A DNA stretch of 64,000 nt from an uncultured Bacteroidales bacterium (GCA_964388245.1 CAYLZH010000001.1:774-64773); one strand, 5' to 3'; positions 10,426 through 49,082 are shown, counted from the stretch's first letter. A program made the numbers and translations. Notes: generated by a model from the sequence alone, not told the origin.

Positions 10426-11442
10426 TTACCATTTAATAATTGCTCCGGCCCAGGAAAATCCAACTCCAAAACTTGCTAATAACAATAGATCGCCCGGTTT
10501 TATTTTCCCATCCTGAATATCATGATGCAAGGCAATTGGGACTGATGAGGCAACAGTGTTCCCTATTGTCTCAAGATCGAGCCTGTATTGATCGTCGCGA
10601 AACCCTGTTTTCTTGGCTATGTTTTGTAAAATATATTTACTGGCCTGATGAAAGACGACACGGTTGATGTGTTCAGGCAGGAGGTTTTCTTTGTGTAACA
10701 ATTCATTAACCATTTTTGGAGCCGTTTTTATAGAAAACAGGAAAACGCCGCTGCCGTTCATTTTTATGCAATTATCGTTAACAGTATTGCCATAATTGTC
10801 GGTGAAATCGGGTGTGTTCAAATCTCGTAATGGATATCTTGCCCCTCCGTTTTTTATTATGATATTCTCGTAGCCCCGGCCGTTGGTTCCCAATACAAAA
10901 CTTTTTATTTGTCCAAGGTTGTCATTGGTTTGAGCAGAGACAATGCAAGCTGCTGCACCATCACCGAATAGGGTCCATGTGCTTTTATCGCCCGGGTGCA
11001 GGTATTTGGTTGTAACGTCCGAAGTAATAAAAAGAATATTCTTGCAGGTGCCAGAAGCAACCAATCCGTTGGCAATACTTAATCCGTAAACAAAACCTGT
11101 GCATCCCACATTAAAATCTATAGCTCCGGCATGTGTTGGTACACCTAATTCATCCTGAAGAAAACAGGCAGTATTGGGCGAAATATAATCGGGTGAATAT
11201 GTATTTAGCAGAACAAAATCGATTTCTTTCGGCGATATCCCCGATTCTTCAAACAACTGGTTAGCAACAATAAGGGCATAATCCGAAGCAAGATCATTTT
11301 TGCTGGCAACATGGCGTTGTTTTACACCGGTTACCTTTGCCAGGTCATGAATATTCCAATCGGGGTGCATTTTGTCAAGGTCGTCGTTCGTGACAACTTT
11401 GTCTGGCAGGTATGATGTTATTGCACGGATATATGATTTCAT
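10426..11442 (-). CDS. 3-oxoacyl-ACP synthase III family (second KAS III paralogue)
   Basis: The triad contexts are intact: NVGCTGFVYG, FHQASKYI, IGNTVASSVP. The C-terminus GFGVGFSWAG is typical of FabH-like enzymes. Confidence 0.85.
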   Translation of the reverse strand: MKSYIRAITSYLPDKVVTNDDLDKMHPDWNIHDLAKVTGVKQRHVASKNDLASDYALIVANQLFEESGISPKEIDFVLLNTYSPDYISPNTACFLQDELGVPTHAGAIDFNVGCTGFVYGLSIANGLVASGTCKNILFITSDVTTKYLHPGDKSTWTLFGDGAAACIVSAQTNDNLGQIKSFVLGTNGRGYENIIIKNGGARYPLRDLNTPDFTDNYGNTVNDNCIKMNGSGVFLFSIKTAPKMVNELLHKENLLPEHINRVVFHQASKYILQNIAKKTGFRDDQYRLDLETIGNTVASSVPIALHHDIQDGKIKPGDLLLLASFGVGFSWAGAIIKW

Positions 11443-37538: not shown

Positions 37539-37794
37539 GATTTTTTTCAACAATCCGATCCTTTTAAACAAATTTACTCTTGTAAAGGTTCTTTTGTAAT
37601 ATTGAGTTCATCTCGTGTAACATTTATCCTCTTAACCAGTCTTTGAGAGCAAATTCCAAAACTATGCTCTACAACAGGATAAGATATTACTTTTCAATAC
37701 AAAAACTTCTTACTTTTAACTCCAATAAGACTTTCTGCTTTTCAGGAAAAAAGGATCAATCAGAAGGAAGTAACACCAACAAATACCATTTGCT

Positions 37795-38481
37795 ATGAAA
37801 GAACTGTTTGAAGCTTCATTTTCGGCCATTAACATAATCCCTACTGTATTACTGGTACTATCTCTCATTTATTGGCTCATAGTTATCTTTGGCATTTTCG
37901 ATCTCGATACCGTGGATCTTGATGTGGAGGCGGACGTTGATATTGATGTAGATGTAGAAGCAGACATTGACCTTGATGCCGATGCAGACCTTGATGCTGA
38001 TAGTGAAATAAGCGTAAGTGGTTCGGTTCTGTGGCTCAACTCAGTGTTATCGTTTTTCAATATTGGTCGTGTACCAGTTATGATTGTCGTTAGTTTCTTT
38101 TCTCTTTCACTTTGGATTATTTCCGTAATGCTGAATCATTGGCTGAGTAATACATCTTTTCTGATTTCTTTTATACTTCTTATACCAAATATGGTGGCAA
38201 GTTTATTTGTGGCCAAAATCATTACTATTCCGTTTGTTAAGGTTTTTAAGAAGGCCAACGAAATTCAAAACAATACAGGTTTGGAAGGTAAAATCTGCAA
38301 AGTGACCATTCCGGCCAGCCACGATAGGATGGGGCAGGCACTGATCCGAATTAATGGAGATACTTTTAATGTAAATATAAAAACCCAACCTGACGTTTCA
38401 CTGCAAGTAGGAGAGCAGGCGCTGGTAATCGAATATCAAAAAGACAATAAAATATATATAGTTGAACCTTATAAAGAATAA
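37795..38481 (+). CDS. YqiJ/DUF1449-like inner-membrane protein with C-terminal NfeD-like OB-fold domain
   Basis: An N-terminal TM helix is followed by an acidic tract (DLDTVDLDVEADVDIDVDVEADIDLDADADLDADSE) and further TM helices. The C-terminus is a beta-rich soluble domain (GLEGKICKVTIPASHDRMGQALIRINGDTFNVNIK...ALVIEY). Its stop lies 2 nt before the flotillin ATG. Confidence 0.7.
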   Translation: MKELFEASFSAINIIPTVLLVLSLIYWLIVIFGIFDLDTVDLDVEADVDIDVDVEADIDLDADADLDADSEISVSGSVLWLNSVLSFFNIGRVPVMIVVSFFSLSLWIISVMLNHWLSNTSFLISFILLIPNMVASLFVAKIITIPFVKVFKKANEIQNNTGLEGKICKVTIPASHDRMGQALIRINGDTFNVNIKTQPDVSLQVGEQALVIEYQKDNKIYIVEPYKE

Positions 38482-38483
38482 TC

Positions 38484-40619
38484 ATGGGAGCAAATGTAAT
38501 AGCTACTTCAACAGTATTACTGGTGATATTTTTTATCGCCATCGTGATACTCGTAATTAAAACCTACAAAAAGGCCGTCCAGGGCCAGGCCATTGTCCGA
38601 ACAGGCTCGGGTGGCACAAAAGTTTCCTTCAGTGGATTTTTTGTAATTCCCGTTCTGCACAAAATGGAAGTGATGGACATTACCATCAAAACAATCGTGA
38701 TTTCACGATTAGGGGTCGATGGGTTGATCTGTAAAGACAATATGCGGGCTGATATCAAGGTGTCGTTCTTTGTGCGGGTAAACAAAACCGTCGAGGATGT
38801 AATCCAGGTGGCACAAACGATCGGTTGCTACCGGGCTTCTTTCCAGGAATCGCTGGAAAATCTTTTCGATGCCAAATTCTCCGAGGCATTGAAAACCGTC
38901 GGTAAGCAGTTCGATTTTGTGGAGTTGTACAATTCGCGTGTGAAATTCAAAGAAGAGATTCTTCACACCATTGGCACAGACCTCAATGGCTATGTGCTCG
39001 ACGATTGTGCCATCGACTATCTCGAACAAACTCCTCTCGAAACTTTAAAAAGTGGTAATATTCTCGATGCTGAGGGTATAAAGAAAATTACCCAGCTTAC
39101 CGCCGAACAGATAGTGCTTGCCAACCAAATTGAACGCGACAAAGAAAAGACGATCAAGAAGCAGGACGTGGAAGCCCGGGAAACTATTCTTGAACTTGAA
39201 AAGCAACTGGCCGAAAAAGAGGAACAGCAAAAGCGCGAGATAGCATCGGCTGTAGCTCGTGAAGAAGCTGCCACTAAAAAAATTCAGGAAGAGCAACGAC
39301 AATTATCAGAGCAGGCCCGTATTGCTGCCGAAGAAGAAATCCAGATTGCCGAGCAGAATAAAGAGCGTCAGGTGATTGTGGCTGAGAAGAACAAGGAAAA
39401 GACCGAGGCCATCGAAACCGAGGCAGTACTGAAAGACAAGGAATTGGAAATTACCGAGCGCGAAAAAATCGTTACCCTGGCACAGATCGCAAAAGAGAAA
39501 TCGGTTGAGGAAGAAAAGAAAAACATCCAGGATGTGATCAAGCAGCGTGTAATGGTTGAAAAGGCAGTGGTTGAAGAAGAAGAAAAGATCAAGGATACCA
39601 AAGCTTTTGCCGGAGCAGAACGTGAGAAATCGGTTGCCATAAAATTGGCAGAAAAAGATGCTGAGGAAGGTTTGGTGAAAGAAATTAAAGCTGCTGAGGC
39701 TGATAAAACTGCTTCCGTTTTCAAAGCAGAACAAAAGCAGATTGAAGCAGAAGCTCAAAAACAAGCTTCATCGAAAGAAGCAGATGCGATAAAAATTATG
39801 GCCGAAGCAAAAGCTGCACAGGAGGCTGCCATTGGAATGGCTGAAGCACAGGTGATTGAGGCCAAAGCTGAAGCCAATCAAAAACAAGGTGAAGCCGAAG
39901 CTAATGTAATAGAGATGAAAGCAGTTGCCGAGGCTAAAGGAATAGAGGTTACCTCGGAGGCTGAAGCCGGAGCCACAAAGAAAATTGGTGTATCAGAAGC
40001 GGAGGTTATTAGTGCTAAAGCTGTTGCCGAAGAAGAAAAAGGTATGGCCGAAAATCGTGTGGCTCAAGAAAACTTTACCGTTGAGGCCAAGGGTATTGAA
40101 GAAAAAGCAGGAGCCATGAAGAAACTCGATGGTGTGGGCAAAGAGCACGAAGAATTCAAAATCCAGATTCAGAAAGAAAAAGATATCGAACTAGCCGAAA
40201 TCAATATTCAGAAAGATATCGCCGAGGCTCAGGCCAAAGTTATTGCCGAAGCCCTCAAAGCTGCTAATATCGATATCGTAGGCGGTGAAACCATGTTCTT
40301 TGAGCAAATAATGGGCGCCATCACCAAAGGTAAAAAAGTTGACCGTACTGTTGACAACAGCCATGTGTTAGCCGATTTAAAAGAACAGTTCTTCAACTCA
40401 GAAGGAGGCAAATCCTTCAAGGAAAATTTCCGTCACTTCATCGATCAGTTTGGCGTAAGTTCTGAAGACTTGAAAAACCTGAGCCTTTCGAATCTGCTAC
40501 TAAAGTTAAGCACAGAAGCTGATTCCGCTGAAGATAAAAGTATGTTCAGTGGTTTGCTCAACTCGGTAAGCTCTTTGGGACTGGCTGATAAAACTGCAAA
40601 AGAAATAGGTTTGGAATAA
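38484..40619 (+). CDS. Flotillin-family SPFH/Band-7 protein (YqiK-like) with long E/A/K-rich coiled coil
   Basis: An N-terminal TM helix (VLLVIFFIAIVILVI) is followed by an SPFH-like domain (QAIVRTGSGG..., MDITIKTIV..., ADIKVSFFVRV). About 350 aa of AEAEA/KEKE coiled coil follows, then a flotillin-type C-terminus. Confidence 0.85.
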   Translation: MGANVIATSTVLLVIFFIAIVILVIKTYKKAVQGQAIVRTGSGGTKVSFSGFFVIPVLHKMEVMDITIKTIVISRLGVDGLICKDNMRADIKVSFFVRVNKTVEDVIQVAQTIGCYRASFQESLENLFDAKFSEALKTVGKQFDFVELYNSRVKFKEEILHTIGTDLNGYVLDDCAIDYLEQTPLETLKSGNILDAEGIKKITQLTAEQIVLANQIERDKEKTIKKQDVEARETILELEKQLAEKEEQQKREIASAVAREEAATKKIQEEQRQLSEQARIAAEEEIQIAEQNKERQVIVAEKNKEKTEAIETEAVLKDKELEITEREKIVTLAQIAKEKSVEEEKKNIQDVIKQRVMVEKAVVEEEEKIKDTKAFAGAEREKSVAIKLAEKDAEEGLVKEIKAAEADKTASVFKAEQKQIEAEAQKQASSKEADAIKIMAEAKAAQEAAIGMAEAQVIEAKAEANQKQGEAEANVIEMKAVAEAKGIEVTSEAEAGATKKIGVSEAEVISAKAVAEEEKGMAENRVAQENFTVEAKGIEEKAGAMKKLDGVGKEHEEFKIQIQKEKDIELAEINIQKDIAEAQAKVIAEALKAANIDIVGGETMFFEQIMGAITKGKKVDRTVDNSHVLADLKEQFFNSEGGKSFKENFRHFIDQFGVSSEDLKNLSLSNLLLKLSTEADSAEDKSMFSGLLNSVSSLGLADKTAKEIGLE

Positions 40620-40626
40620 TTTGTAA

Positions 40627-40798
40627 ACGCAGAGACACAGAGACGCAGAGGAATTGTTAGTGTCCTCTGTGTCTCTATCGTGCAACTTCGTGATAAAACT
40701 ATTTCACTCTGTTTCACAAAGAACCACAGAGTTTCAAAAAGAAATATGAATCAATTCAAAGTATTAAAGTCCTTCTCTGCACCTCTGTATCTCTACGT
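40627..40798. mobile_element. MITE-like 172-bp element with ~24-bp terminal inverted repeats made of (A/G)CNCAGAG units
   Basis: The left end is acgcagagacacagagacgcagag (from 40627). The reverse complement of the right end (40798 back to 40775) is acgtagagatacagaggtgcagag, 20/24 identical by my hand alignment. TA flanks both ends. An internal 14-bp hairpin joins 40639-40652 and 40663-40676. Confidence 0.5.
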
Positions 40799-40812
40799 TA
40801 AAACAATAAACA

Positions 40813-43800
40813 ATGTCGTTGGAAGAAAAAAATAACATACAGGAAGCAATGAGTTCGGGTGTAGGACTCGAACAGGGAACTTATGAGATAATCCGAAACC
40901 GTTTGCTGGCCCAGGGCAAGGACTTGTACACCCGTCTTGGTAAGCTGAACGAAGAGCGCAAGCGTGTGTTTGGGGCTGTGGCAACCCAGCTATTGGCAAC
41001 CGAGCGCGTTACGACCGATAACAACTGCGTGCCGGTCGACATGTTCGCCTTCGACCATTCCTTCCTCTTTGGCTATAATGTGCTGATAGGCTTGAAAAAG
41101 GAGGTGGATATCTCGGATGTGTTCTCAATCTATGAGTATAGTGACCAAAACTTTCACCAGAAGGATTTGACTGTTTTGAGGGATGAAGAATTTCTGAAAG
41201 ATTTCAAAAATCTATACAAATATTACAAAGACACCAGGTTTCGAAAGTTTGCTTATATCGATTCGCACCTCTACATGGTGTTCCGTACAGGCAAGGGCAT
41301 GGCCGATGTCAAAACCTTTAAATGGCTGGTGGATGGTACAACGCTGGTTTATATTGACAACCGTAGCGACCATGAATATACCTACCCCAACCAACATGAG
41401 TTCGACTGGAAAAAGACCACACGTGATCAACAGCAAAAGGGGCAACACCCACATATTTCCATCGAAGATGAGGTATTTGTAGAAACCACCGAGGGTGACC
41501 TTACAATTAAAATTGAAAACAATACCGACACTGGGCAGGGAATTTTTGAGGAAGAGGTAGAACATAAAACCCAAACCCTCGACGATGCCGAAATCTATTA
41601 TGCCATCATCGACTCGTTGGTGGTGCTTAAAATAAAGCCTTACCATGAAGAAGATTTTCGCTACATCGTATATAACCAAAAGGTGAAGCAGGCCCACCGC
41701 ATCGACTCGCTGGAGGATAGCTGTGTGCTGTTGCCCGACGACCACGGGATTATCTTTGCCAATGGCTATTATTTACAAACAGGCGAGCTTAAGGTTTTCG
41801 ACCAGCAAATAGACGATATGTTGTTCGAAACCCGTATTGCTGCACCAAATGGAGAGGATTTTCTCTATGTCTTCTTCAATAAATCGACAGGAACTTACAT
41901 TCTTCTGTCGTACAATTTGATCGACCAAAAGGTGGACAAACCCATCGTTTGCCATGGTTATTCCATTTTCGATAATGGCGAATTGTGCTATTTCAAATCC
42001 GATGATGATCCAAAAAAACACCACGCCCTCCAGATTTGGCAAACGCCTTATTTAAGCCCCAATTATCAGCCTCCTGTGCAAAACGAAAGTTTTCTGTACA
42101 AGATCGGCAACAAGGATATTGTGAAGGGGATGGCCGAATGTAATGAGGTGCAGAACCTGATAATCAAGGACGAGACTTATGCCAATCTTTATTTCGATAT
42201 CCTGAAAAAGGCCACTGATGTGCTCGATTCCTATTATTGGATCGACAAGGAGGAATGTTTCCGTTTGGATGAACCATTGGCCGGCATAAAGGAAGCTTCG
42301 TCGATGGCTATTGGCGAGTACGAGAAAGTGGTGCAGATCAGGCAGTCGACACAAAAAGAATTCAACCGTGTTGTGGGCTTGTTTGATGAACTGAACCATT
42401 CCATCTTGGCTTCATCGCTCAAAGAGATTAACGATTTTGTAAACTTCCTTTCGGAGATCCGAAAGTTGCGGGGTGAGATTATTTCATTGAAAGACCTGCG
42501 CTATGTCGATCTGGATGCCGTGCAAAAGTACGAATCGCAGATGGTGGAACGCAACGAAAACCTGTCGATGGCTTGTGTTGAATTCCTTTTGAAAGAGGAA
42601 GCCCTGAACCCCTACCGCGAAAAAGTTGAGGCTGTGAACGACCGGGTTTCGGAAGTTGGCAAGGTGGTAGATGCTGATGAATTGGACGAGGAACTGGCCG
42701 CTATTGCCACCGAGTTGGAGATGCTCATCGAGATAGTGGGCAACCTGAAAATCCACGATGCCACTGAAACCACTCGCATCATCGATAATATCTCGGGCAT
42801 TTACGCCGAGTTTAATCTAAGTAAGGCGGCACTAAAAAATTGTAAGCGCGATCTGTTGGCCGTGGAAGGCAAGGCCGAGTTCAACTCGAAAATAAAACTC
42901 ATCCGCCAGGGCATTGTCAATTACATCGACCTGGCCGACTCGCCCGAAAAATGCGACGACTACCTGGCCAAGATAATGGTGCAGTTGGAAGAGTTGGAGG
43001 GAAAGTTCTCGGAGTTTCCCGAGTTTCTCGAAAAGCTGGCCACCGAGCGCGAGGAGAGCTACAATTCCTTTGAGTCGAAGAAAGTGAACCTGGTCGAAGA
43101 GCGCAACCGAAAGACTAATGCACTGTTCGCATCTGCGGAGCGCATTCTAAAGTCGATTGGCAACAAGGCATTTCAATATAAATCAACCAGCGAGATAAAC
43201 GGCTATTTTGCTTCCGATCCGATGATCGAAAAATTACGCTCGATCGTAGAGCAATTGATCGAGATGGAGGACAGCGTAAAGGCTGATGATATTCAAAGTC
43301 AGTTAAAAAGCATCCGCGAAGAATCCGTCCGTCAGTTAAAAGACAAGTCGGAGCTCTTCTTGCAGGGCGACAATGTGATCAGTTTTGGTCAGCACCATTT
43401 CCTGGTCAACACCCAACAATTGGGACTAACGATGGTGTACCGCAACAAGGAAATGTTCTATCACCTTACAGGAACAAACTTTTTCGAGACCGTTCAGGAC
43501 GAAGGTTTTGCTGCTACTCGTTTAGTTTGGGAACAAAGCCTGGTTTCGGAAAATCAAGATGTGTATCGGGGCGAGTACCTGGCATACAAAATATTCCAGA
43601 CAGCTAACTCGAACGAAGAAAACAGTGGTGGCCAAGGTGTCACCCTCAGTCAGTTAAAAGAATTTACGGATGAGGAGTTGATCGAATTTATTCGCAGATT
43701 CATGGCCACCCGCTACAACGAAGGCTATTTGAAAGGCGTACACGATGCGGATGCCGGAATCATTCTCCGATCTTTATTGAATATTCATTCGCATGCTGGA

Positions 43801-45735
43801 CTATTGCGATATGCAAGCCAAACCCGTGCTGCTGCCCAGTTCTTCTGGCAGGTAGGACTTCCGCAAAACGAAAAGCAAAACATAGTAAACAAACTGAATG
43901 GGGTTGGGGCTATTTTGGCCGTATTCCCTGACAGCAAAGAATTCCGATATATTGTGGATGGATTGGTAGAGAAAAATCATGAATATTCTCTACATCAGAA
44001 TATATTCCCTAACCTGAACATTGAAGGTGCCGCCAATTACCTTTTCGAAGAATTGATAGAGGACGAATCCTTTGTGATTGCGCCCGAGGCCTATCAACTG
44101 TTTGAATCCTTCCAGAAGTTCCTTTTTGAAAAAAAGGCGCGAAAACAATTTGCTGAATCCTTGGCAGCAGTTGAAGAACATTCTGAAACACGCTATAAGT
44201 TGATCTGCAATTGGGTGAATTCCTTCTTGCAACAATACAAATTGAAGAACCTGTTTCCGTATGCCTACGAGGTGGCCATGCTTATTTTCAATGGCACCCC
44301 AAACAAGGCGAAGGTTGTGGAAGTGTCGATCCATGAAGAGTTGAATGGCTTAAGTGGTTCGCACAGCATGATTGAGGAGGGCAAGCTCGAACTGCGCTAT
44401 GATAGTTTTATGCAATGCTTGTCTGATTACGAAAACACGGTAGTTAAGCAGTTCGGTCAGTTCGAGGGATTGAAAAAATCCCTGCTGAAAAACTATGAAT
44501 ACGAATTGCGATTGAACGAGTTTAAGCCTCGCATCCTGTCCTCCTTTGTTAGAAACCAGTTGATTAATGAAGTCTATCTACCTATTGTTGGTAGTAATCT
44601 AGCCAAGCAAATCGGTACGGCTGGCGAAAGCAAACGAACCGACCTGATGGGGCTTCTCCTTTTGATCTCTCCTCCGGGATATGGTAAAACCACTCTGATG
44701 GAATACATCGCCAATCGTCTCGGCATTATCTTTATGAAGGTGAACGGCCCGGCTCTTGGGCATAAAGTGGTATCGCTCGACCCGGCCGAGGCCAACAATG
44801 CGAGTGCCCGCGAAGAACTTGAAAAGCTCAACCTGGCCTTCGAGATGGGCGACAATGTGATGATTTACTTAGACGATATCCAGCACTGTAATCCTGAGCT
44901 TTTACAAAAGTTTATCAGCCTCTGCGATGCCCAACGAAAGATAGAGGGTGTGTATAAAGGCCGTGCCAAGACCTACGATTTCAAGGGTAAGAAAGTCTGT
45001 GTGGTAATGGCGGGAAATCCTTACACCGAGAGTGGCGAGAAATTCCAAATCCCGGATATGTTGGCCAACCGTGCCGACATTTACAACCTAGGGGATATTA
45101 TTGGCGACACCGAGGATGCCTTCAAGCAAAGCTATATCGAGAATGCCGTTACCTCCAACCTTGTGCTGGGCAAACTGGCAGCCAAAAGTGCCAAGGATAT
45201 TTATCCGCTCATCCGTTTAGCTGAAACGGGCAACAAGGAAGGATTGGAGTTCGAGGCTGATCATTCCCCTGCCGAATTGGGCGATTATGTCGAAATTCTG
45301 AAAAAGCTCTTTGCTGTTCGCGATGTCATCTATCGGGTAAACAAGGAGTACATTGCCTCGGCGGCCCAGTCGGACGAATTCCGAACAGAGCCAGCTTTCA
45401 AGCTCCAGGGCTCGTACCGCAACATGAACAAGATAGCCGAAAAGGTAGTGGCCGTGATGAACGACAAAGAATTGCAGACCCTTATCGAAGCCCACTACGA
45501 AAGCGAATCGCAAACATTAAGCAAGGACAGCGAGGCCAACATGCTCAAGTTCCGCGAGCTCATTGGCAAGCAAAGCAAAAAGGACAGCCTTCGATGGAAC
45601 GAAATCAAAGACACCTTCATGGAACACCAAAAAAGCAAGATGTACGGTGGCGATGCCGTTGGCCGTGTAGTAGCCGAAATGCAAAGCCTAAACCTGGGCT
45701 TGGAAGGTATTGCGAAGGTGATTGGGGGGAGGTAA
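40813..45735 (+). CDS. 1640-aa soluble protein of unknown function with a single C-terminal AAA+ ATPase core
   Basis: One long uninterrupted ORF. Walker A is PPGYGKTT (aa 1287-1294, nt 44671-44694). Walker B is VMIYLDD (aa 1349-1355, nt 44857-44877). VVMAGNP is sensor-1-like and LANRADIY is a possible Arg finger. I see no signal peptide or TM helix. The N-terminal ~420 aa are beta-rich and the central ~800 aa helical. Confidence 0.8.
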   Translation: MSLEEKNNIQEAMSSGVGLEQGTYEIIRNRLLAQGKDLYTRLGKLNEERKRVFGAVATQLLATERVTTDNNCVPVDMFAFDHSFLFGYNVLIGLKKEVDISDVFSIYEYSDQNFHQKDLTVLRDEEFLKDFKNLYKYYKDTRFRKFAYIDSHLYMVFRTGKGMADVKTFKWLVDGTTLVYIDNRSDHEYTYPNQHEFDWKKTTRDQQQKGQHPHISIEDEVFVETTEGDLTIKIENNTDTGQGIFEEEVEHKTQTLDDAEIYYAIIDSLVVLKIKPYHEEDFRYIVYNQKVKQAHRIDSLEDSCVLLPDDHGIIFANGYYLQTGELKVFDQQIDDMLFETRIAAPNGEDFLYVFFNKSTGTYILLSYNLIDQKVDKPIVCHGYSIFDNGELCYFKSDDDPKKHHALQIWQTPYLSPNYQPPVQNESFLYKIGNKDIVKGMAECNEVQNLIIKDETYANLYFDILKKATDVLDSYYWIDKEECFRLDEPLAGIKEASSMAIGEYEKVVQIRQSTQKEFNRVVGLFDELNHSILASSLKEINDFVNFLSEIRKLRGEIISLKDLRYVDLDAVQKYESQMVERNENLSMACVEFLLKEEALNPYREKVEAVNDRVSEVGKVVDADELDEELAAIATELEMLIEIVGNLKIHDATETTRIIDNISGIYAEFNLSKAALKNCKRDLLAVEGKAEFNSKIKLIRQGIVNYIDLADSPEKCDDYLAKIMVQLEELEGKFSEFPEFLEKLATEREESYNSFESKKVNLVEERNRKTNALFASAERILKSIGNKAFQYKSTSEINGYFASDPMIEKLRSIVEQLIEMEDSVKADDIQSQLKSIREESVRQLKDKSELFLQGDNVISFGQHHFLVNTQQLGLTMVYRNKEMFYHLTGTNFFETVQDEGFAATRLVWEQSLVSENQDVYRGEYLAYKIFQTANSNEENSGGQGVTLSQLKEFTDEELIEFIRRFMATRYNEGYLKGVHDADAGIILRSLLNIHSHAGLLRYASQTRAAAQFFWQVGLPQNEKQNIVNKLNGVGAILAVFPDSKEFRYIVDGLVEKNHEYSLHQNIFPNLNIEGAANYLFEELIEDESFVIAPEAYQLFESFQKFLFEKKARKQFAESLAAVEEHSETRYKLICNWVNSFLQQYKLKNLFPYAYEVAMLIFNGTPNKAKVVEVSIHEELNGLSGSHSMIEEGKLELRYDSFMQCLSDYENTVVKQFGQFEGLKKSLLKNYEYELRLNEFKPRILSSFVRNQLINEVYLPIVGSNLAKQIGTAGESKRTDLMGLLLLISPPGYGKTTLMEYIANRLGIIFMKVNGPALGHKVVSLDPAEANNASAREELEKLNLAFEMGDNVMIYLDDIQHCNPELLQKFISLCDAQRKIEGVYKGRAKTYDFKGKKVCVVMAGNPYTESGEKFQIPDMLANRADIYNLGDIIGDTEDAFKQSYIENAVTSNLVLGKLAAKSAKDIYPLIRLAETGNKEGLEFEADHSPAELGDYVEILKKLFAVRDVIYRVNKEYIASAAQSDEFRTEPAFKLQGSYRNMNKIAEKVVAVMNDKELQTLIEAHYESESQTLSKDSEANMLKFRELIGKQSKKDSLRWNEIKDTFMEHQKSKMYGGDAVGRVVAEMQSLNLGLEGIAKVIGGR

Positions 45736-45767
45736 GTCACGGATTGTAATTGGTGCCAAGATTTGAC

Positions 45768-45804
45768 AAAACCACGAGTGAGGAAATTCGCGGCAACACG
45801 GGGA
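45768..45804 (+). repeat. Hairpin repeat copy R1
   Basis: aaaccacgagtgaggaaattcgcggcaacacggggag aligns without gaps over 34 nt with R2 and with the reverse complement of R3. Confidence 0.6.
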
Positions 45805-45878
45805 GATTACAGGAATGAATTGTATATATGATTGGATTGAAGTAAATTTGAAGAAGATTTATCAAATGAGTGTGAAAT

Positions 45879-46205
45879 ATGAAATTGCCATCAAAAGCAG
45901 TAATTGCAGATGAAAAGATCAAAGCATATCTTTTATCCTATCGTAGAAGAAATGATAAATCTAAATGGCTTGAAAGAGCGGGCTATAACCAGGAAAACTG
46001 GAGTATCTTAAAAGTGGACATACAGGATCAGCTTCTTCCTTTGGATGCTGTTCCTGTAGAAGAGAATGAATACGGACAGATGTACAAGTTAATTGGCAGA
46101 CTTACTGGCCCAAACGGTAAGACCTTATTGGCATGTACAATTTGGATGGTGGAAAATGAAACGAAGTTACTTAAGTTTATCACGATGTTCCCATTTAAAA
46201 ATTGA
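45879..46205 (+). CDS. DUF6883-like small protein (first gene of a putative two-gene toxin-antitoxin-like cassette)
   Basis: At 108 aa it shows the pattern KI.AYLLS....KSK.....GY...NW..L........YGQMYKLIGRLTGPNGKTL...T.W, which matches my recollection of DUF6883. The next gene starts 6 nt after its stop. Confidence 0.6.
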   Translation: MKLPSKAVIADEKIKAYLLSYRRRNDKSKWLERAGYNQENWSILKVDIQDQLLPLDAVPVEENEYGQMYKLIGRLTGPNGKTLLACTIWMVENETKLLKFITMFPFKN

Positions 46206-46211
46206 ATTGAT

Positions 46212-46454
46212 ATGAAATATGAATTATACAAGGAAGTAGTCTTACTAAAAGACATTCCTGAAAAAAAATTAAAAAAGGGAGATGTTGCAACTATTGTGGA
46301 ATACCATCCATCAAAAACATCCAGCGATGGATATACCTTGGAGGTATTCAATACAATTGGAGATACGATAGCGGTATTGTCAGTGTCCGAAGCAGAAATC
46401 GAAACATTAAAGAAAAGTGAGGTCTTTAGTGTACGTCCTTTAGAAGTGGCATAA
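46212..46454 (+). CDS. DUF4926-like small protein (second gene of the cassette)
   Basis: At 80 aa, MKYELYKEVVLLKDIPEKKLKKGDVATIVEY....DGYTLEVF...GDTIAVLSV matches the DUF4926 SH3-like pattern as I recall it. Confidence 0.65.
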   Translation: MKYELYKEVVLLKDIPEKKLKKGDVATIVEYHPSKTSSDGYTLEVFNTIGDTIAVLSVSEAEIETLKKSEVFSVRPLEVA

Positions 46455-46494
46455 TATCTTTTTTCAACACTGCACCATGGATCCTTTCATTGAT

Positions 46495-46530
46495 AAACCA
46501 CGAGTGAGAACACTCGCGGCAGCGCGGGGG
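46495..46530 (+). repeat. Hairpin repeat copy R2, abutting the duplicated gene fragment
   Basis: In aaaccacgagtgagaacactcgcggcagcgcggggg the arms ccacgagtg and cactcgcgg pair at 8 of 9 positions. Its last base is the first base of the 210-nt duplicate. Confidence 0.65.
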
Positions 46531-46739
46531 ACAGCGAGACCAATATACTTAAGTTCCGCGAGCTCATCGGCAAGCAGACAGAAAAGGACAGCCTACGCTG
46601 GAACGAAATAAAAGACACCTTTATGCAACACCAAAAAAGCAAAATGTACGGCGGCGATGCTGTTGGAAGAGTTGTTGCAGAAATGGAAAGTTTAAATGTA
46701 GGGTTGGAAGGTATTGCAAAAGTGATTGGGGGGAGGTAG
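46530..46739 (+). pseudogene. Orphan diverged copy of the last 69 codons plus stop of the 1640-aa AAA+ gene
   Basis: It aligns without gaps to 45526..45735. By my hand count 177/210 nt and 62/69 aa are identical, with the stop at the same position. Of 29 differing sense codons, 22 are synonymous. No in-frame start codon lies at its 5' end, and an in-frame TAA lies at 46494-46496. Confidence 0.85.
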
Positions 46740-46859
46740 AAGTTAGATAAAGGCATGAATTACAAATTCGGGCCTTGGGGGGAGGAAGGAATGACATAAA
46801 TGTGATAGTAGTCTGCTGAGAATGCAATTATATTCGCACAATATAAAATTGGAATTTAT

Positions 46860-47426
46860 ATGAAAAATGCGTTTGTCATTGTTACATTTTGGTTAGCAAG
46901 CTATTCATCTTTTGGACATCCTTTGATATTACGAAGCCTTGTCTTTTCCTATGTTTCAGAAATAGGCAATGAGAAATTAATCAACTCTTATCAACTTGAT
47001 TTGGTAAGCGAGTGTGTGTTTTATTGTACCTACCATGTATATTATTCAATTGGTGCTAATTGCAAATACTCTGACAATTTTAAATCTATTGGAATGTCTT
47101 ATACAGCTGTACCCAGATTCTTTAATGGATTTGGGTCAGGTTGGAACTCAAATTACGAACCTCTATTAAGTATAAAATCCTCTGTAATAATTGATAAAGT
47201 AGATAAATCAATATCACTATCTTCTGATTTTGGAGTTGGTGCTATTGCTTTTTACGAAATAAAAAATGTACATGTATATGTAAAATTATTATACAACTAC
47301 CAGTTACCTGCTAAATCATATTTAAGGATGAATCAGCATTTTATTTCGTTCTCAGTAGGATCAAATTTTGGTTTTGTCCTCGACCACAGACATGGGTTTA
47401 GACACCGTTTTTTATTTAGACATTGA
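46860..47426 (+). CDS. Hypothetical protein (possible small secreted or outer-membrane protein)
   Basis: A 188-aa ORF in very AT-rich DNA. The N-terminus is hydrophobic (MKNAFVIVTFWLASYSSFG) and aromatic/Gly-rich segments alternate. No motif is recognisable. Confidence 0.35.
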   Translation: MKNAFVIVTFWLASYSSFGHPLILRSLVFSYVSEIGNEKLINSYQLDLVSECVFYCTYHVYYSIGANCKYSDNFKSIGMSYTAVPRFFNGFGSGWNSNYEPLLSIKSSVIIDKVDKSISLSSDFGVGAIAFYEIKNVHVYVKLLYNYQLPAKSYLRMNQHFISFSVGSNFGFVLDHRHGFRHRFLFRH

Positions 47427-47448
47427 TCTATCTCCAGGGCAGTTTTGT

Positions 47449-47487
47449 CCCCCATGCTGCCGCGCGTGTCCTCACGCGTGGTTCGGG
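47449..47487 (-). repeat. Hairpin repeat copy R3 (inverted orientation)
   Basis: The reverse complement is cccgaaccacgcgtgaggacacgcgcggcagcatggggg. The stem arms ccacgcgtg and cacgcgcgg carry a compensatory A-T to C-G change relative to R2. Confidence 0.6.
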
Positions 47488-47490
47488 AAA

Positions 47491-47522
47491 GTTACACGAA
47501 GTGCTACACAAAGTTGCACGAA
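47491..47522 (+). repeat. CACGAAG/CACAAAG heptamer-type repeat block
   Basis: The block gttacacgaagtgctacacaaagttgcacgaa contains cacaaagttgcacga. This matches the reverse complement of 40679-40694 (cacgaagttgcacga) at 14/15 positions. Confidence 0.55.
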
Positions 47523-47580: not shown

Positions 47581-48636
47581 TCACTTGCCGGCCATGTCCT
47601 TTCCATAAGTAAGGGTGATTTTGCGGGTTATTTTGCCATCGCCTTTTATTGATTTGAATTCAGTGAGGAGCTCTTCATCATAGGTATATTTCTGTTGCCA
47701 GGTTTGCTTCCCCTTTTTGAATCCGGTTCGGGATAAGACTAATTCTCCATCATAGGTGTACAGATATTTATACTTTTCCCTGCCTTTTTTATTATAGCCT
47801 ATCGATGTAAGTTGTTTGCTGTAACTTCCATCGAATGTAGATTCCCAAAGAAGTCGGTCGTTGCCATCGTAACTTTTTCGTTCAACAATTGAAGTGTCAG
47901 CAGCATTATACTTTGTTACATATTTCCTGATGTGCCCTTTTTCATCGAACGATTGATATACCTTAATCAAGTAATCCTTCGATGACTCGTCCCATTGGCA
48001 AACCTGGGTTTCGTTTTTACGCTTCTCGAGAACTTCACCCTCACTCTTGCATTCATACGACCATATCTTCTTTACTTTCCCACGGCGATTATATAAGGTA
48101 GTCCGTTTAAGCTCATCCTTTTTAAAATATTCATATGCCCACTTGTGAGAAATTTTCCCGTCCGAATCAAACCAGGTATAGGTTGCTAATGTACTATCAG
48201 GATTATATACCCATTCTTGGTGATGAACGACCATACCTTTCGAATTGATTTTCTTTTTCTCCCCAATCTTACCGATAGCATTATACTTCATCAATATGGT
48301 TTGATTGAGCTTTTCTTTTTTATACTTTTTAGCCTCCACAACACGTCCGTCTTCATTATATTGAAACTCGAACATGGGTTTGCTTACACCATCTTTGTTG
48401 AATTTTGATAAACAGATCAACGATCCATTATCGTTATATTCTTTAGTGTATCGCTTTATTTTCCCACGTTTAAGTACTACCTTGAAATTGATTTGGTCAA
48501 CCAGAGTAGTTGGTTCATATGCCAGGGGAGTATGTTTCGATTGGGAAAACTCCCAACCTAAGGTGTAATTGCATTGGGCAAAAGAATTAGTTACTATCAA
48601 CACAATGCTAATATGAAATAGGAATACACTTTTCAT
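47581..48636 (-). CDS. Secreted protein built from YD-like repeats (paralogue of 15936..16784)
   Basis: Has a signal peptide (MKSVFLFHISIVLIVTNSFAQ). Repeated Y-N/D-x-x-G motifs are present (YNDNGSL, YNEDGRVV, FDSDGKI, FDEKGHI, YDGNDRLL, YTYDGELV). Confidence 0.55.
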   Translation of the reverse strand: MKSVFLFHISIVLIVTNSFAQCNYTLGWEFSQSKHTPLAYEPTTLVDQINFKVVLKRGKIKRYTKEYNDNGSLICLSKFNKDGVSKPMFEFQYNEDGRVVEAKKYKKEKLNQTILMKYNAIGKIGEKKKINSKGMVVHHQEWVYNPDSTLATYTWFDSDGKISHKWAYEYFKKDELKRTTLYNRRGKVKKIWSYECKSEGEVLEKRKNETQVCQWDESSKDYLIKVYQSFDEKGHIRKYVTKYNAADTSIVERKSYDGNDRLLWESTFDGSYSKQLTSIGYNKKGREKYKYLYTYDGELVLSRTGFKKGKQTWQQKYTYDEELLTEFKSIKGDGKITRKITLTYGKDMAGK

Positions 48637-48745: not shown

Positions 48746-48868
48746 TGTTTGCTGGCTATGCATTGAATTCGATGCATGTATTTTGTCATTATTACCGTCG
48801 GGGGGGTACTATAGGCGTCAAAGGTTGAAGATGAAAATACGCATATGCCAGCGCCAATTGCTGAAAAA

Positions 48869-48909
48869 CTTTGTGTAACTCTTTGCCTTCTCTGTGTCGC
48901 TTTGTGAAA
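48869..48909 (-). repeat. CACAAAG/CACAGAG heptamer-type repeat block (inverted)
   Basis: The reverse complement is tttcacaaagcgacacagagaaggcaaagagttacacaaag. It uses the same unit family as 40627-40798 and 47491-47522. Confidence 0.5.
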
Positions 48910-49082
48910 TAGCTTGTATGTACAACTCGACTTTAGATTTAGCTATATCTCATTGGTACACTAAAGATCACAGGGGATCATAGAGTAGTTGTGATATTTA
49001 TTGCTTGTGGAGGCTATACGGTACCAATGTATAAATCTGTATCAGTGTGGGGATTAAATCAATGTTAATAAATAGCAGCTAT

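What the first reader, a model, noticed from the sequence alone, without database searches (positions are those of the whole stretch)
45526..46739. The giant gene's last 210 nt are duplicated 1 kb downstream as a selection-shaped relic, bracketing a two-gene cassette
Seen directly: 46530-46739 aligns without gaps to 45526-45735, and both end in a stop at the same codon position. By my hand count 33 of 210 nt differ. Of 29 differing sense codons, 22 are synonymous and 7 change the amino acid (62/69 aa identical). So the two copies diverged as parts of functional homologous genes, not as a decaying local duplication. Eighteen differences are G/C in the intact gene versus A/T in the relic, against 6 the other way. 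The relic therefore looks more like the AT-rich host background. Between the copies lie a hairpin repeat (R1), the DUF6883/DUF4926-like pair and a second repeat (R2) that abuts the relic exactly. Inference, option (a): an incoming DNA segment carried its own version of the gene's 3' end plus the cassette and integrated into the resident gene, displacing the old 3' end. This is the classic signature of islands that target gene 3' ends. Option (b): a foreign allele of the whole locus replaced the resident one, with an illegitimate right-hand junction. No integrase is present in the window.
Basis: partly seen in the sequence, partly recalled or inferred. Interest (0 to 1): 0.7.

Follow-up and report, generated by a model that had tools for sequence, protein, structure and literature searches.

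The report
Displaced gene tail beside inserted cassette
The last 210 bases of a 1,640-codon ATPase gene reappear 1 kb downstream as a dead copy from a different allele, a recombination scar left when foreign DNA replaced the gene's end; similar scars occur in other Bacteroidota, so this is a known kind of footprint at a new locus.

Summary
46530-46739 aligns without gaps to 45526-45735, with 33/210 mismatches, 22 synonymous and 7 replacement codons, and stops in register. dN/dS is 0.05 at dS about 1.1, so the downstream copy is the tail of a second allele that was functional until recently, not a decaying local duplicate.

The gene (40813-45735) is a DUF3686/DUF7902/AAA+ "DNA repair ATPase". 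Between the copies lie a DUF6883/DUF4926 toxin-antitoxin-like pair and two copies of a REP-like hairpin (R1, R2). A third copy (R3) lies inverted 0.7 kb further on.

The architecture recurs. Of 81 loci with this gene, three others (a Bacteroidales MAG and two Hymenobacter isolates) carry a same-sense tail relic beyond different cargo, and two carry short tail repeats with no cargo. The relics start at different positions, two of the three are synonymous-biased, and no cargo holds an integrase.

The best reading is recombinase-free allele displacement, as in rhs C-terminal displacement or homology-facilitated illegitimate recombination: homologous on the left, illegitimate on the right at the edge of R2. 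The left junction, the donor and whether the cassette arrived with the new tail are unresolved, because no close relative is available. This is a new member of a known kind, of moderate interest.

The parts
37795..40619 (+). Two upstream genes of the operon (228 aa and 711 aa), conserved together with the giant gene
   Evidence: Neither has a Pfam hit. The block 37612-45734 is colinear with L001 at 74-76% nt identity. In a Hymenobacter plasmid the equivalent genes are annotated as a DUF1449 family protein and a hypothetical protein, preceded by PspA/IM30.
40813..45735 (+). Giant gene, 1640 aa: DUF3686 + DUF7902 + AAA+ ATPase (annotated 'DNA repair ATPase' in RefSeq plasmid records)
   Evidence: Pfam E-values are 1.6e-187 (DUF3686), 1.9e-26 (DUF7902) and 2e-7 (AAA). 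GC3 is 0.57 against a background of about 0.36.
45526..45735 (+). Working tail of the giant gene (copy A), last 69 codons plus TAA
   Evidence: GC3 is 0.667.
45769..45803 (+). R1, a REP-like hairpin 33 nt after the giant gene's stop
   Evidence: The covariance model hit at 45762-45810 scores 56 bits.
45879..46205 (+). DUF6883 gene (108 aa), first gene of the toxin-antitoxin-like pair
   Evidence: Pfam E=2e-18. The pair with DUF4926 is conserved in unrelated contigs, including toxin-antitoxin arrays.
46212..46454 (+). DUF4926 gene (80 aa), second gene of the pair
   Evidence: Pfam E=3.8e-14. GC3 is 0.30, like the host.
46495..46529 (+). R2, a REP-like hairpin 40 nt after the DUF4926 stop. Its 3' edge is the junction with the relic
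   Evidence: The covariance model hit scores 62.5 bits. R2 and R3 both end in GGGGGACA, and the gene reads AAGGACAGCGAG at the equivalent point.
46530..46739 (+). Relic (copy B): displaced tail of a second allele, 69 codons plus TAG, with no start codon
46775..46800 (+). Short repeat of the relic's last 12 nt plus its flank (TTGGGGGGAGG...). It may be an older, smaller relic
   Evidence: the repeat finder family D4: 26 nt at 81% identity, with an exact 11-nt core. Not tested further.
47446..47483 (-). R3, a third REP-like hairpin, inverted, 97 nt after the stop of the convergent 351-aa gene (47581-48636)
   Evidence: The covariance model hit scores 64.7 bits. R3 has a C-G pair where R2 has A-U.

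Best explanation
The relic is the tail of the allele that used to end this gene.

Inferred sequence of events: DNA from a related bacterium carried at least the 3' part of its own allele and the hairpin (R-type) that follows it, possibly already with the DUF6883/DUF4926 pair and a second hairpin. This DNA recombined into the resident operon. The left crossover was homologous, somewhere inside the gene or operon. The right end had no homologous partner, because this operon sits in a different neighbourhood in almost every species. It was therefore joined illegitimately, at the outer edge of R2, to a point 210 nt before the resident stop, probably through the 5-nt microhomology GGACA.

The gene stayed intact with the foreign tail. 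The resident tail was pushed downstream, lost its start and is now a silent fragment. No site-specific recombinase is needed.

Shown: the duplication, its allele-type divergence, its recurrence in other genomes, and the absence of recombinases.

Inferred: the direction of replacement (which copy is foreign), the homologous left crossover, the microhomology, and whether the cargo came in the same event.
For: 1. dN/dS is 0.049 at dS 1.08. A copy that decayed neutrally after a local duplication should give about 0.5.
2. The relic is intact over 69 codons with its stop in register, but has no start. This points to recent inactivation.
3. The architecture recurs. A self-comparison of 81 loci finds direct, downstream copies of the gene's tail that run to the stop codon (within about 12 nt) in the window, L001, L057 and L074, plus short cargo-less repeats in L054 and L036. 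No relic of the operon's 5' end was found.
4. Other relics are also synonymous-biased. L001 has 6 synonymous and 0 replacement changes plus a 2-nt deletion. L057 has 9 synonymous and 1 replacement. L074 has 10 and 8, with an in-frame stop, and looks older.
5. Relic start points differ: 210, 136, 112 and 108 nt before the stop.
6. Cargo differs: a toxin-antitoxin-like pair here; AbiLi/PDC-M38 in L001; RusA-like plus AHJR-like nuclease in L057; hydrolase, histidine kinase and glycosyltransferase in L074. None contains an integrase.
7. Most downstream ORFs of the gene have no homologue at the same position in any other of the 76 loci compared, so right-hand homology is normally absent.
8. R2 and R3 both end in GGGGGACA, and the gene reads AAGGACAGCGAG at the join.
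9. In L057 the relic is closer to the tails of related species (88, 85 and 83%) than the working tail is (85, 83 and 78%).
10. The same model has been published for rhs and T6SS loci (PMC5361080).
Against: - No donor and no empty site is available. The nearest genome is 74% identical, the best protein hit is 72% identical, and the source contig is not retrievable.
- The left crossover cannot be seen. Synonymous divergence from L001 is saturated along the whole gene, and GC3 runs parallel in the window and L001.
- The microhomology rests on a single comparison with R3.
- The right junction sits exactly at the end of a repeat in two genomes: R2 here, and a 12/14-nt repeat in L001. A purely random illegitimate join would not do this. 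It hints at a defined DNA end or an active site.
- All relics are on the 3' side (6 to 0). A symmetric process does not predict this.
Confidence: 0.6

Rival explanations
1. Campbell-type insertion with a portable homology arm. A circular or linear molecule carrying [tail + cargo (+ relic)] integrates by homologous recombination within the tail alone. Once a cargo is bracketed by a tail and a relic, it can move into any genome that has this gene, whatever lies downstream. The relic would then be the functional right-hand arm of a cassette that needs no recombinase.
For: - Single-crossover integration produces exactly this topology: a direct duplication of the target that brackets the insert.
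- The operon's right flank differs in most species, so the tail is the only shared homology.
- The architecture recurs with four different cargos.
- All relics are 3', direct and run to the stop codon.
Against: - No cargo was seen in more than one genome (downstream ORFs are mostly singletons).
- The arms are short (108-210 nt), and here only 85% identical with a longest exact run of 17 nt. That is poor substrate for RecA.
- Nothing explains how the first circle forms.
- Two loci have tail repeats without cargo.
Confidence: 0.15
2. Two separate events, the second site-specific. The relic arose from an allele replacement that ended just past the gene's hairpin. Later the toxin-antitoxin pair entered at that hairpin through an activity that recognises R (a REP-associated or Xer-like enzyme encoded elsewhere), duplicating R into R1 and R2.
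For: - R1 and R2 are direct repeats that bracket exactly the toxin-antitoxin pair.
- R is a conserved, structured hairpin family. It has compensatory stem changes and a conserved A.C mismatch, and it occurs in two other unrelated contexts, one of them next to a YafQ toxin-antitoxin pair.
- L001's cargo is also bracketed by a 12/14-nt repeat that starts at the stop codons.
- L054 and L036 look like cargo-free tail repeats.
- The toxin-antitoxin genes have host-like GC3 (0.30-0.37), unlike the gene tail.
Against: - No recombinase or transposase is present in the window.
- The only nearby candidate is a 63-aa HUH-like fragment in L087 with no Pfam hit.
- Homologous DUF6883/DUF4926 pairs elsewhere carry no R.
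- The L001 repeat is not significant on its own (shuffle p=0.096).
- L057 and L074 show no bracketing repeats.
Confidence: 0.15
3. A local tandem or segmental duplication of the gene's own tail, followed by decay of the downstream copy.
For: Direct orientation, close spacing and register of the stops.
Against: dS is 1.08 with dN/dS 0.049. Only 7 of 29 differing codons change the amino acid, and there is no frameshift or stop in 69 codons. Neutral decay of one copy predicts about half the changes per site to be replacements, plus indels, as seen only in the old L074 relic.
Confidence: 0.03
4. An assembly artefact or strain chimera, or the end of a separate intact paralogue cut off by misassembly.
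For: The source is probably a metagenome-derived contig of 66 kb.
Against: - The copies share no exact run longer than 17 nt, too short to mislead an assembler.
- The relic is preceded by R2 and two in-frame stops, not by gene sequence.
- The same architecture occurs in assemblies of cultured isolates, L057 and L074.
Confidence: 0.02

Closest known systems
C-terminal displacement in rhs/CDI loci and sequential displacement of T6SS effector-immunity modules (Jackson et al. 2009 and Koskiniemi et al. 2014, as cited in PMC5361080; Kirchberger et al. 2017, PMC5361080)
   Same: Incoming DNA is anchored by homology in the conserved upstream part of a long gene. It supplies a new 3' end plus downstream genes and pushes the old 3' end downstream as an orphan. 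No dedicated recombinase is known. Homology-facilitated illegitimate recombination is the proposed mechanism.
   Different: In those loci the displaced piece is a different toxin domain with its immunity gene, and the variability is the point. Here the displaced tail is the same domain (90% aa identity). The gene is an AAA+ ATPase of unknown role, not a secreted toxin. The cargo is a free-standing module placed after the stop codon.
Homology-facilitated illegitimate recombination in transformation and conjugation (de Vries & Wackernagel 2002; Prudhomme et al. 2002; Meier & Wackernagel 2003, as cited in PMC5361080; PMC3240628)
   Same: A one-sided homologous anchor with an illegitimate join at short microhomology. 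Here the candidate microhomology is the 5 nt GGACA.
   Different: Those are laboratory events of known donor and recipient. Here both are inferred. The join coincides with the end of a hairpin repeat, which the laboratory cases do not require.
Integrase-mediated genomic islands at the 3' ends of tRNA or protein genes
   Same: The island brings a replacement 3' end, and the displaced native end lies at the far border as a direct repeat.
   Different: There is no integrase. The repeat is 85% identical rather than sharing an exact core, and the border position varies between genomes.
Partial duplication of the 3' conserved segment around ISCR1 in complex class 1 integrons (recalled from the literature, not checked here)
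   Same: The topology is conserved segment, inserted genes, then a partial second copy of the segment. It is explained by homologous integration of a circular intermediate.
   Different: No ISCR or IS91-like gene is present here, and the repeats are diverged alleles rather than near-identical copies.
REP elements and REP clusters (for R1-R3 only)
   Same: Imperfect palindromes of about 35 nt with a conserved mismatch. They are extragenic, lie just downstream of genes, occur in both orientations and cluster. REPs are recalled as join points of duplications and as mRNA 3' stabilisers.
   Different: The genome-wide copy number is unknown. No RAYT gene was found. There is no Rfam family.

Membership tests
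Integrase-mediated island at a gene 3' end | Tyrosine or serine recombinase gene inside the inserted segment or adjacent to it | tested here: not met
   The 1,004-bp insert holds only DUF6883 and DUF4926. No recombinase domain was found in any ORF of at least 120 aa in the 64 kb window. None was found in the cargo of L001, L057 or L074.
Integrase-mediated island at a gene 3' end | Identical core sequence at both borders, at a fixed position in the target gene | tested here: not met
   The longest exact run is 17 nt within a repeat that is 85% identical. Relics begin 210, 136, 112 and 108 nt before the stop in four genomes.
Integron cassette array / attC | attC sites with R''/R' boxes (RYYYAAC...GTTRRRY), all in one orientation, with an IntI integrase | tested here: not met
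   R is 35-45 nt and has no GTTRRRY box. R3 is inverted. No integrase is present.
Allele / C-terminal displacement by one-sided homologous recombination (HFIR-like) | The displaced fragment carries divergence of the kind found between functional alleles, not neutral decay | tested here: met
   dN/dS is 0.049 with p=2.6e-11. The L001 relic has 6 synonymous and 0 replacement changes, and the L057 relic has 9 and 1.
Allele / C-terminal displacement by one-sided homologous recombination (HFIR-like) | Homology between donor and recipient on one side only | tested here: inconclusive
   Most downstream ORFs have no homologue at the same position in any other of the 76 loci compared, and the window and L001 share only the operon. 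The actual donor is unknown.
Allele / C-terminal displacement by one-sided homologous recombination (HFIR-like) | Short microhomology at the illegitimate join | tested here: inconclusive
   GGACA is shared by the R2/R3 end (GGGGGACA) and the gene (AAGGACAGCGAG). This is inferred from R3, not from a donor sequence.
Allele / C-terminal displacement by one-sided homologous recombination (HFIR-like) | A detectable left crossover (mosaic gene) | tested here: inconclusive
   Sliding pS against L001 is 0.6-0.9 throughout. GC3 profiles are parallel in the window and L001. Comparisons among Hymenobacter species show no step.
Diversity-generating retroelement (template/variable repeat at a gene's 3' end) | Mismatches confined to adenines of the non-coding template repeat; a reverse transcriptase nearby | tested here: not met
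   Only 13 of 33 mismatches have A in the relic. 25 of 33 fall at codon position 3. No reverse transcriptase domain is present.
REP element family (R1-R3) | Short imperfect palindrome, extragenic, in both orientations, with a conserved structure | tested here: met
   The stem is 9 bp with a conserved A.C mismatch. 91.8% of cells are paired. Two pairs show changes on both sides, and 1 of 500 shuffles reaches the observed covariation score. Three different stems occur in the same frame in L087.
REP element family (R1-R3) | Many dispersed copies per genome and a cognate RAYT transposase | tested here: inconclusive
   There are three copies in 64 kb, all within 1.7 kb. Five metagenome contigs carry R, in two distinct contexts. 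The only candidate enzyme is an HUH-like 63-aa fragment in L087 with no Pfam hit. The source genome is not available.
Type II toxin-antitoxin module (DUF6883/DUF4926) | Two small, adjacent, co-oriented genes that recur as a pair | tested here: met
   The same pair occurs in four unrelated contig contexts, one of them a toxin-antitoxin array. A fused form, P0173, exists. Toxicity and neutralisation are not testable here.

The most novel reading that the evidence does not exclude
The tail of this DUF3686/AAA+ gene is a recombinase-free landing pad. Cargo bracketed by a working tail and a relic would form a self-contained cassette whose two arms both target the same about 100-200 nt of the gene. 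Defence and toxin-antitoxin modules could then hop between unrelated Bacteroidota genomes and plasmids that share only this operon. Hairpin elements such as R would mark or create the cassette's right end.
Probability: 0.15. Interest if true: 0.6.

Novelty: new member of a known kind. Interest (0 to 1): 0.35.

Why it matters
The finding shows that C-terminal displacement is not restricted to polymorphic toxin genes. That process has been described mainly for rhs, CDI and T6SS loci. Here it leaves datable scars at an uncharacterised three-gene AAA+ operon that is widespread in Bacteroidota and also found on plasmids.

In at least three lineages, the space just after this gene has accepted toxin-antitoxin or candidate phage-defence genes: the DUF6883/DUF4926 pair in the window, AbiLi/PDC-M38 in L001, and nuclease genes with a PDC-S73 gene just beyond the relic in L057.

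Such relics are practical markers. They reveal horizontal replacement events that composition statistics miss, and they preserve a sample of the previous allele.

If the portable-arm reading were right, it would be a simple mechanism, independent of any recombinase, for spreading accessory cassettes between distant genomes.

Tried and rejected
- Source genome. Exact look-ups of the giant protein and of the DUF6883 protein found no retrievable contig. Only the contig length of 66,372 nt is on record.
- Empty site. The closest of 80 species-level genome loci is 74% nt identical. The best hit in the protein database is 72% identical. The window's downstream ORFs have no homologue next to any other copy of the gene.
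- Left junction. GC3 profiles, sliding pS against L001 and sliding identity among Hymenobacter species show no step.
- Diversity-generating retroelement. Rejected.
- Integron, attC or Xer-like site. Rejected, or without support.
- Known RNA family for R. None found.
- R as an intrinsic terminator. There is no T-run and no terminator call.
- R in viral contigs. Only chance matches in GC-rich contigs.
- The operon in viral contigs. No hits.
- R next to homologous DUF6883/DUF4926 pairs elsewhere. Absent.
- R-like hairpins at the relic junctions of other genomes. None found by the covariance model.
- Bracketing repeats in L057 and L074. None above chance.
- PADLOC and NCBIfam for the operon proteins. 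Only generic AAA hits.
- PDB. Only the Walker region of Cdc48/p97 matched.
- Literature on DUF3686. No papers. One preprint that mentions DUF6883 among BECR ribonucleases was listed but could not be opened.

Full report
OBSERVATION

46530-46739 aligns without gaps to 45526-45735 with 33 mismatches in 210 nt, 25 of them at codon position 3. Of 29 differing sense codons, 22 are synonymous and 7 are replacements (62/69 residues identical). Both copies end in a stop at the same codon (TAA and TAG). There are 18 changes from G/C in the gene to A/T in the relic, against 6 the other way (binomial p=0.023). Two independent tools find the same pair (blastn E=2e-64).

Nei-Gojobori estimates are dS=1.08, dN=0.053 and dN/dS=0.049. 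The excess of synonymous change has p=2.6e-11. The relic's frame is closed upstream by two stop codons and has no start that would give more than about 34 codons. It is a fragment, not a paralogue.

ANATOMY

The gene (40813-45735, 1640 aa) carries DUF3686, DUF7902 and an AAA+ domain. RefSeq plasmid records call its relatives 'DNA repair ATPase'. No solved structure or defence-system model matches beyond the Walker region. It is the last gene of a three-gene block (37795-45735) that is colinear with L001.

After the stop come, in order:
- 33 nt of spacer;
- hairpin R1 (45769-45803);
- a DUF6883 gene (45879-46205) and a DUF4926 gene (46212-46454), a pair that recurs in unrelated contigs, including toxin-antitoxin arrays;
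- hairpin R2 (46495-46529);
- immediately, the relic.

No ORF of at least 120 aa in the window has a recombinase or transposase domain. The flanks are housekeeping genes: beta-oxidation genes upstream, and an ABC-2 transporter, DnaJ and GrpE downstream. T9SS sorting domains place the organism in Bacteroidota.

WHAT R IS

R has no Rfam match and no T-run. It folds into a 9-bp stem with a conserved A.C mismatch. A pattern scan of metagenome contigs found the same core in five AT-rich contigs, representing two further contexts.

A covariance model and a frame search then showed several copies in one of those contigs (L087). They lie in both orientations and have three different but self-complementary stems inside the same conserved frame. 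On eight copies, 91.8% of cells pair, two pairs change on both sides, and only 1 of 500 shuffles reaches the observed covariation score.

These are the properties of a REP-like extragenic palindrome family. Copy number per genome and a cognate enzyme remain unknown. R does not accompany DUF6883/DUF4926 pairs elsewhere, and it is absent from the 80 other loci that carry the giant gene.

THE KEY COMPARATIVE RESULT

I fetched 80 species-level genome loci encoding the gene's last 399 residues and compared each with itself. Direct, downstream copies of the gene's own tail that run to the stop codon (within about 12 nt) occur in:
- the window (210 nt, 85%);
- L001, a Bacteroidales MAG (136 nt, 94%, 1.8 kb downstream);
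- L057, Hymenobacter sp. H14-R3 (112 nt, 91%);
- L074, H. arizonensis (121 nt, 80%, 5.8 kb downstream).

Two further loci have short tail repeats with no cargo: L054 (about 45 nt with its own stop) and L036 (in frame). No locus shows a relic of the operon's 5' end.

The cargo differs each time:
- L001 carries an AbiLi/PDC-M38-type ATPase with a DUF3226 partner.
- L057 carries a RusA-like and an AHJR-like nuclease, with a PDC-S73 gene (Mrr_cat plus nSTAND3) just beyond the relic.
- L074 carries a hydrolase, a histidine kinase and a glycosyltransferase.

None contains an integrase. The relics begin 210, 136, 112 and 108 nt before the stop. Their differences from the working tail are again mostly synonymous in L001 and L057: 6 synonymous and 0 replacement plus a 2-nt deletion in L001, and 9 and 1 in L057. 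The L074 relic has 10 and 8, an in-frame stop and a deletion, as expected of an older relic.

Two of these genomes are cultured isolates, which, together with the 17-nt limit on exact identity here, rules out an assembly artefact.

MECHANISM

A copy that had decayed neutrally since a local duplication would show dN/dS near 0.5 and indels. The observed 0.05 means that both copies spent nearly all their divergence time as ends of working genes. The downstream copy is therefore a displaced allele.

Most ORFs downstream of the gene have no homologue at the same position in any other of the 76 loci compared, and the family also occurs on plasmids. Incoming DNA carrying the operon will therefore usually find homology only on its left. 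The most economical model is a homologous crossover inside the gene or operon plus an illegitimate join on the right. This is the model already proposed for rhs C-terminal displacement and for T6SS effector-immunity arrays in Vibrio cholerae (PMC5361080; see also PMC3240628).

The join here lies at the outer edge of R2. R2 and R3 both end in GGGGGACA, and the gene reads AAGGACAGCGAG. A 5-nt microhomology (GGACA) is therefore plausible but inferred. In L057 the relic is closer to the tails of related species than the working tail is, which fits 'relic = resident'.

WHAT REMAINS OPEN

Synonymous sites against the nearest relative are saturated along the whole gene. The high GC3 of the gene (0.57 against a background of 0.36) is shared by L001 in its own AT-rich setting, so it is a family trait and not a junction marker.

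(ii) The cassette need not have come with the new tail. R1 and R2 bracket exactly the toxin-antitoxin pair. L001's cargo is bracketed by a 12/14-nt repeat that starts at the two stop codons and abuts the relic; this repeat is not significant on its own but is striking in its position. Two loci have tail repeats without cargo. A two-step history is therefore possible: allele replacement that ended just past the gene's hairpin, followed by cargo entry at that hairpin.

(iii) A right junction that coincides with the end of a repeat in two genomes, and the 6-to-0 excess of 3' relics, are not predicted by random illegitimate joining.

(iv) A Campbell-type or portable-arm mechanism fits the topology but lacks its decisive evidence, namely the same cargo in two genomes.

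COMPARISON AND VERDICT

The feature works like C-terminal displacement or homology-facilitated illegitimate recombination. I file it as a new example of that kind, at a non-toxin gene and with free-standing cargo.

It fails the defining tests for three other families:
- an integrase-mediated island (no recombinase, no fixed core);
- an integron cassette (no attC boxes, an inverted copy, no IntI);
- a diversity-generating retroelement (mismatches not at adenines, and at codon position 3).

Interest is moderate.

Noticed in passing
window 45762-45810 (+), 46488-46536 (+), 47443-47491 (-); L087 1433-1480, 1596-1625, 1611-1659, 1711-1758; L082 4987-5035: R is a REP-like hairpin family. Its frame, AAACCA-[arm]-loop-[arm]-CGG-(C/T)AGC, is conserved, with an invariant A.C mismatch and stems that vary by compensatory changes. 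In L087 four copies cluster just downstream of a YafQ toxin-antitoxin pair.
   Followed up: partly
L087 367-790 and 1990-2241: The YafQ toxin-antitoxin pair and its R cluster are bracketed by direct repeats of local sequence (148 nt at 96% identity, plus 57 nt and 29 nt), upstream of a cold-shock gene. Copy 1 holds an extra 142 nt encoding an HUH-like fragment (…CWCMMSNHLH…) with no Pfam hit. This may be a second case of 'toxin-antitoxin pair + R inside a duplicated target'.
   Followed up: partly
window 46775-46800: The relic's last 12 nt plus its 3' flank are repeated 49 nt downstream (TTGGGGGGAGG is exact, and the stop is lost). This may be the trace of an earlier, smaller displacement.
   Followed up: no
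window 47339-47351 (-) versus 46601-46613 (+): A 13-nt exact inverted match, GAACGAAATAAAA (local alignment p about 0.01-0.02), lies about 95 nt beyond R3. It covers the same conserved W-x-E-I-K motif at which the relics of L001, L057 and L074 begin. It may be a tiny third tail fragment or it may be chance.
   Followed up: partly
window 40695-40741 (+) and 48868-48914 (-); L001 6184-6230: An element of about 47 nt upstream of the giant gene (CTATTTCAC...TTTCACAAAG..CACAGAG) recurs in the same relative orientation upstream of the 351-aa minus-strand gene. It is conserved upstream of the giant gene in L001. It may be a shared promoter or operator that links the 351-aa gene to the operon.
   Followed up: no
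window 40813-45735; L001 6278-11200: The giant gene is a strong compositional outlier (GC3 0.57-0.60) in two AT-rich genomes, where neighbouring genes have GC3 of 0.27-0.44. The first gene of the operon is host-like (0.35) and the second is intermediate (0.44-0.48).
   Followed up: partly
L099 (Hymenobacter sp. DG25B plasmid NZ_CP010056.1) 884-10197; NC_009444.1 (Pseudomonas fluorescens SBW25 plasmid): The operon occurs on plasmids. In the Hymenobacter plasmid it is preceded by genes annotated 'molecular chaperone Tir', PspA/IM30 and DUF1449. This hints at a membrane-stress system rather than the 'DNA repair' role given in the annotation.
   Followed up: no
L036, about 11150-11310: In a Desulfobacterales genome the tail motif (…GFQDGLESIKEVL…) is duplicated in frame with a 34-residue period, so the second copy is read through as part of the protein.
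   Followed up: no
L029, L053, L067, L075 (Hymenobacter), about -5600, -5000 and -1500 nt from the gene's end: Repeats of 42-58 nt at 88-100% identity, in both orientations, recur at the same three positions of the operon. Many database homologues are only about 490 aa long. In some species the AAA+ part may therefore be a separate gene preceded by such a repeat.
   Followed up: no
L057 12478-14847: Immediately beyond the L057 relic lies a low-GC gene for an Mrr_cat + nSTAND3 protein that matches the PADLOC candidate PDC-S73 (E=1.7e-152). The site has therefore accumulated defence genes on both sides of the relic.
   Followed up: no
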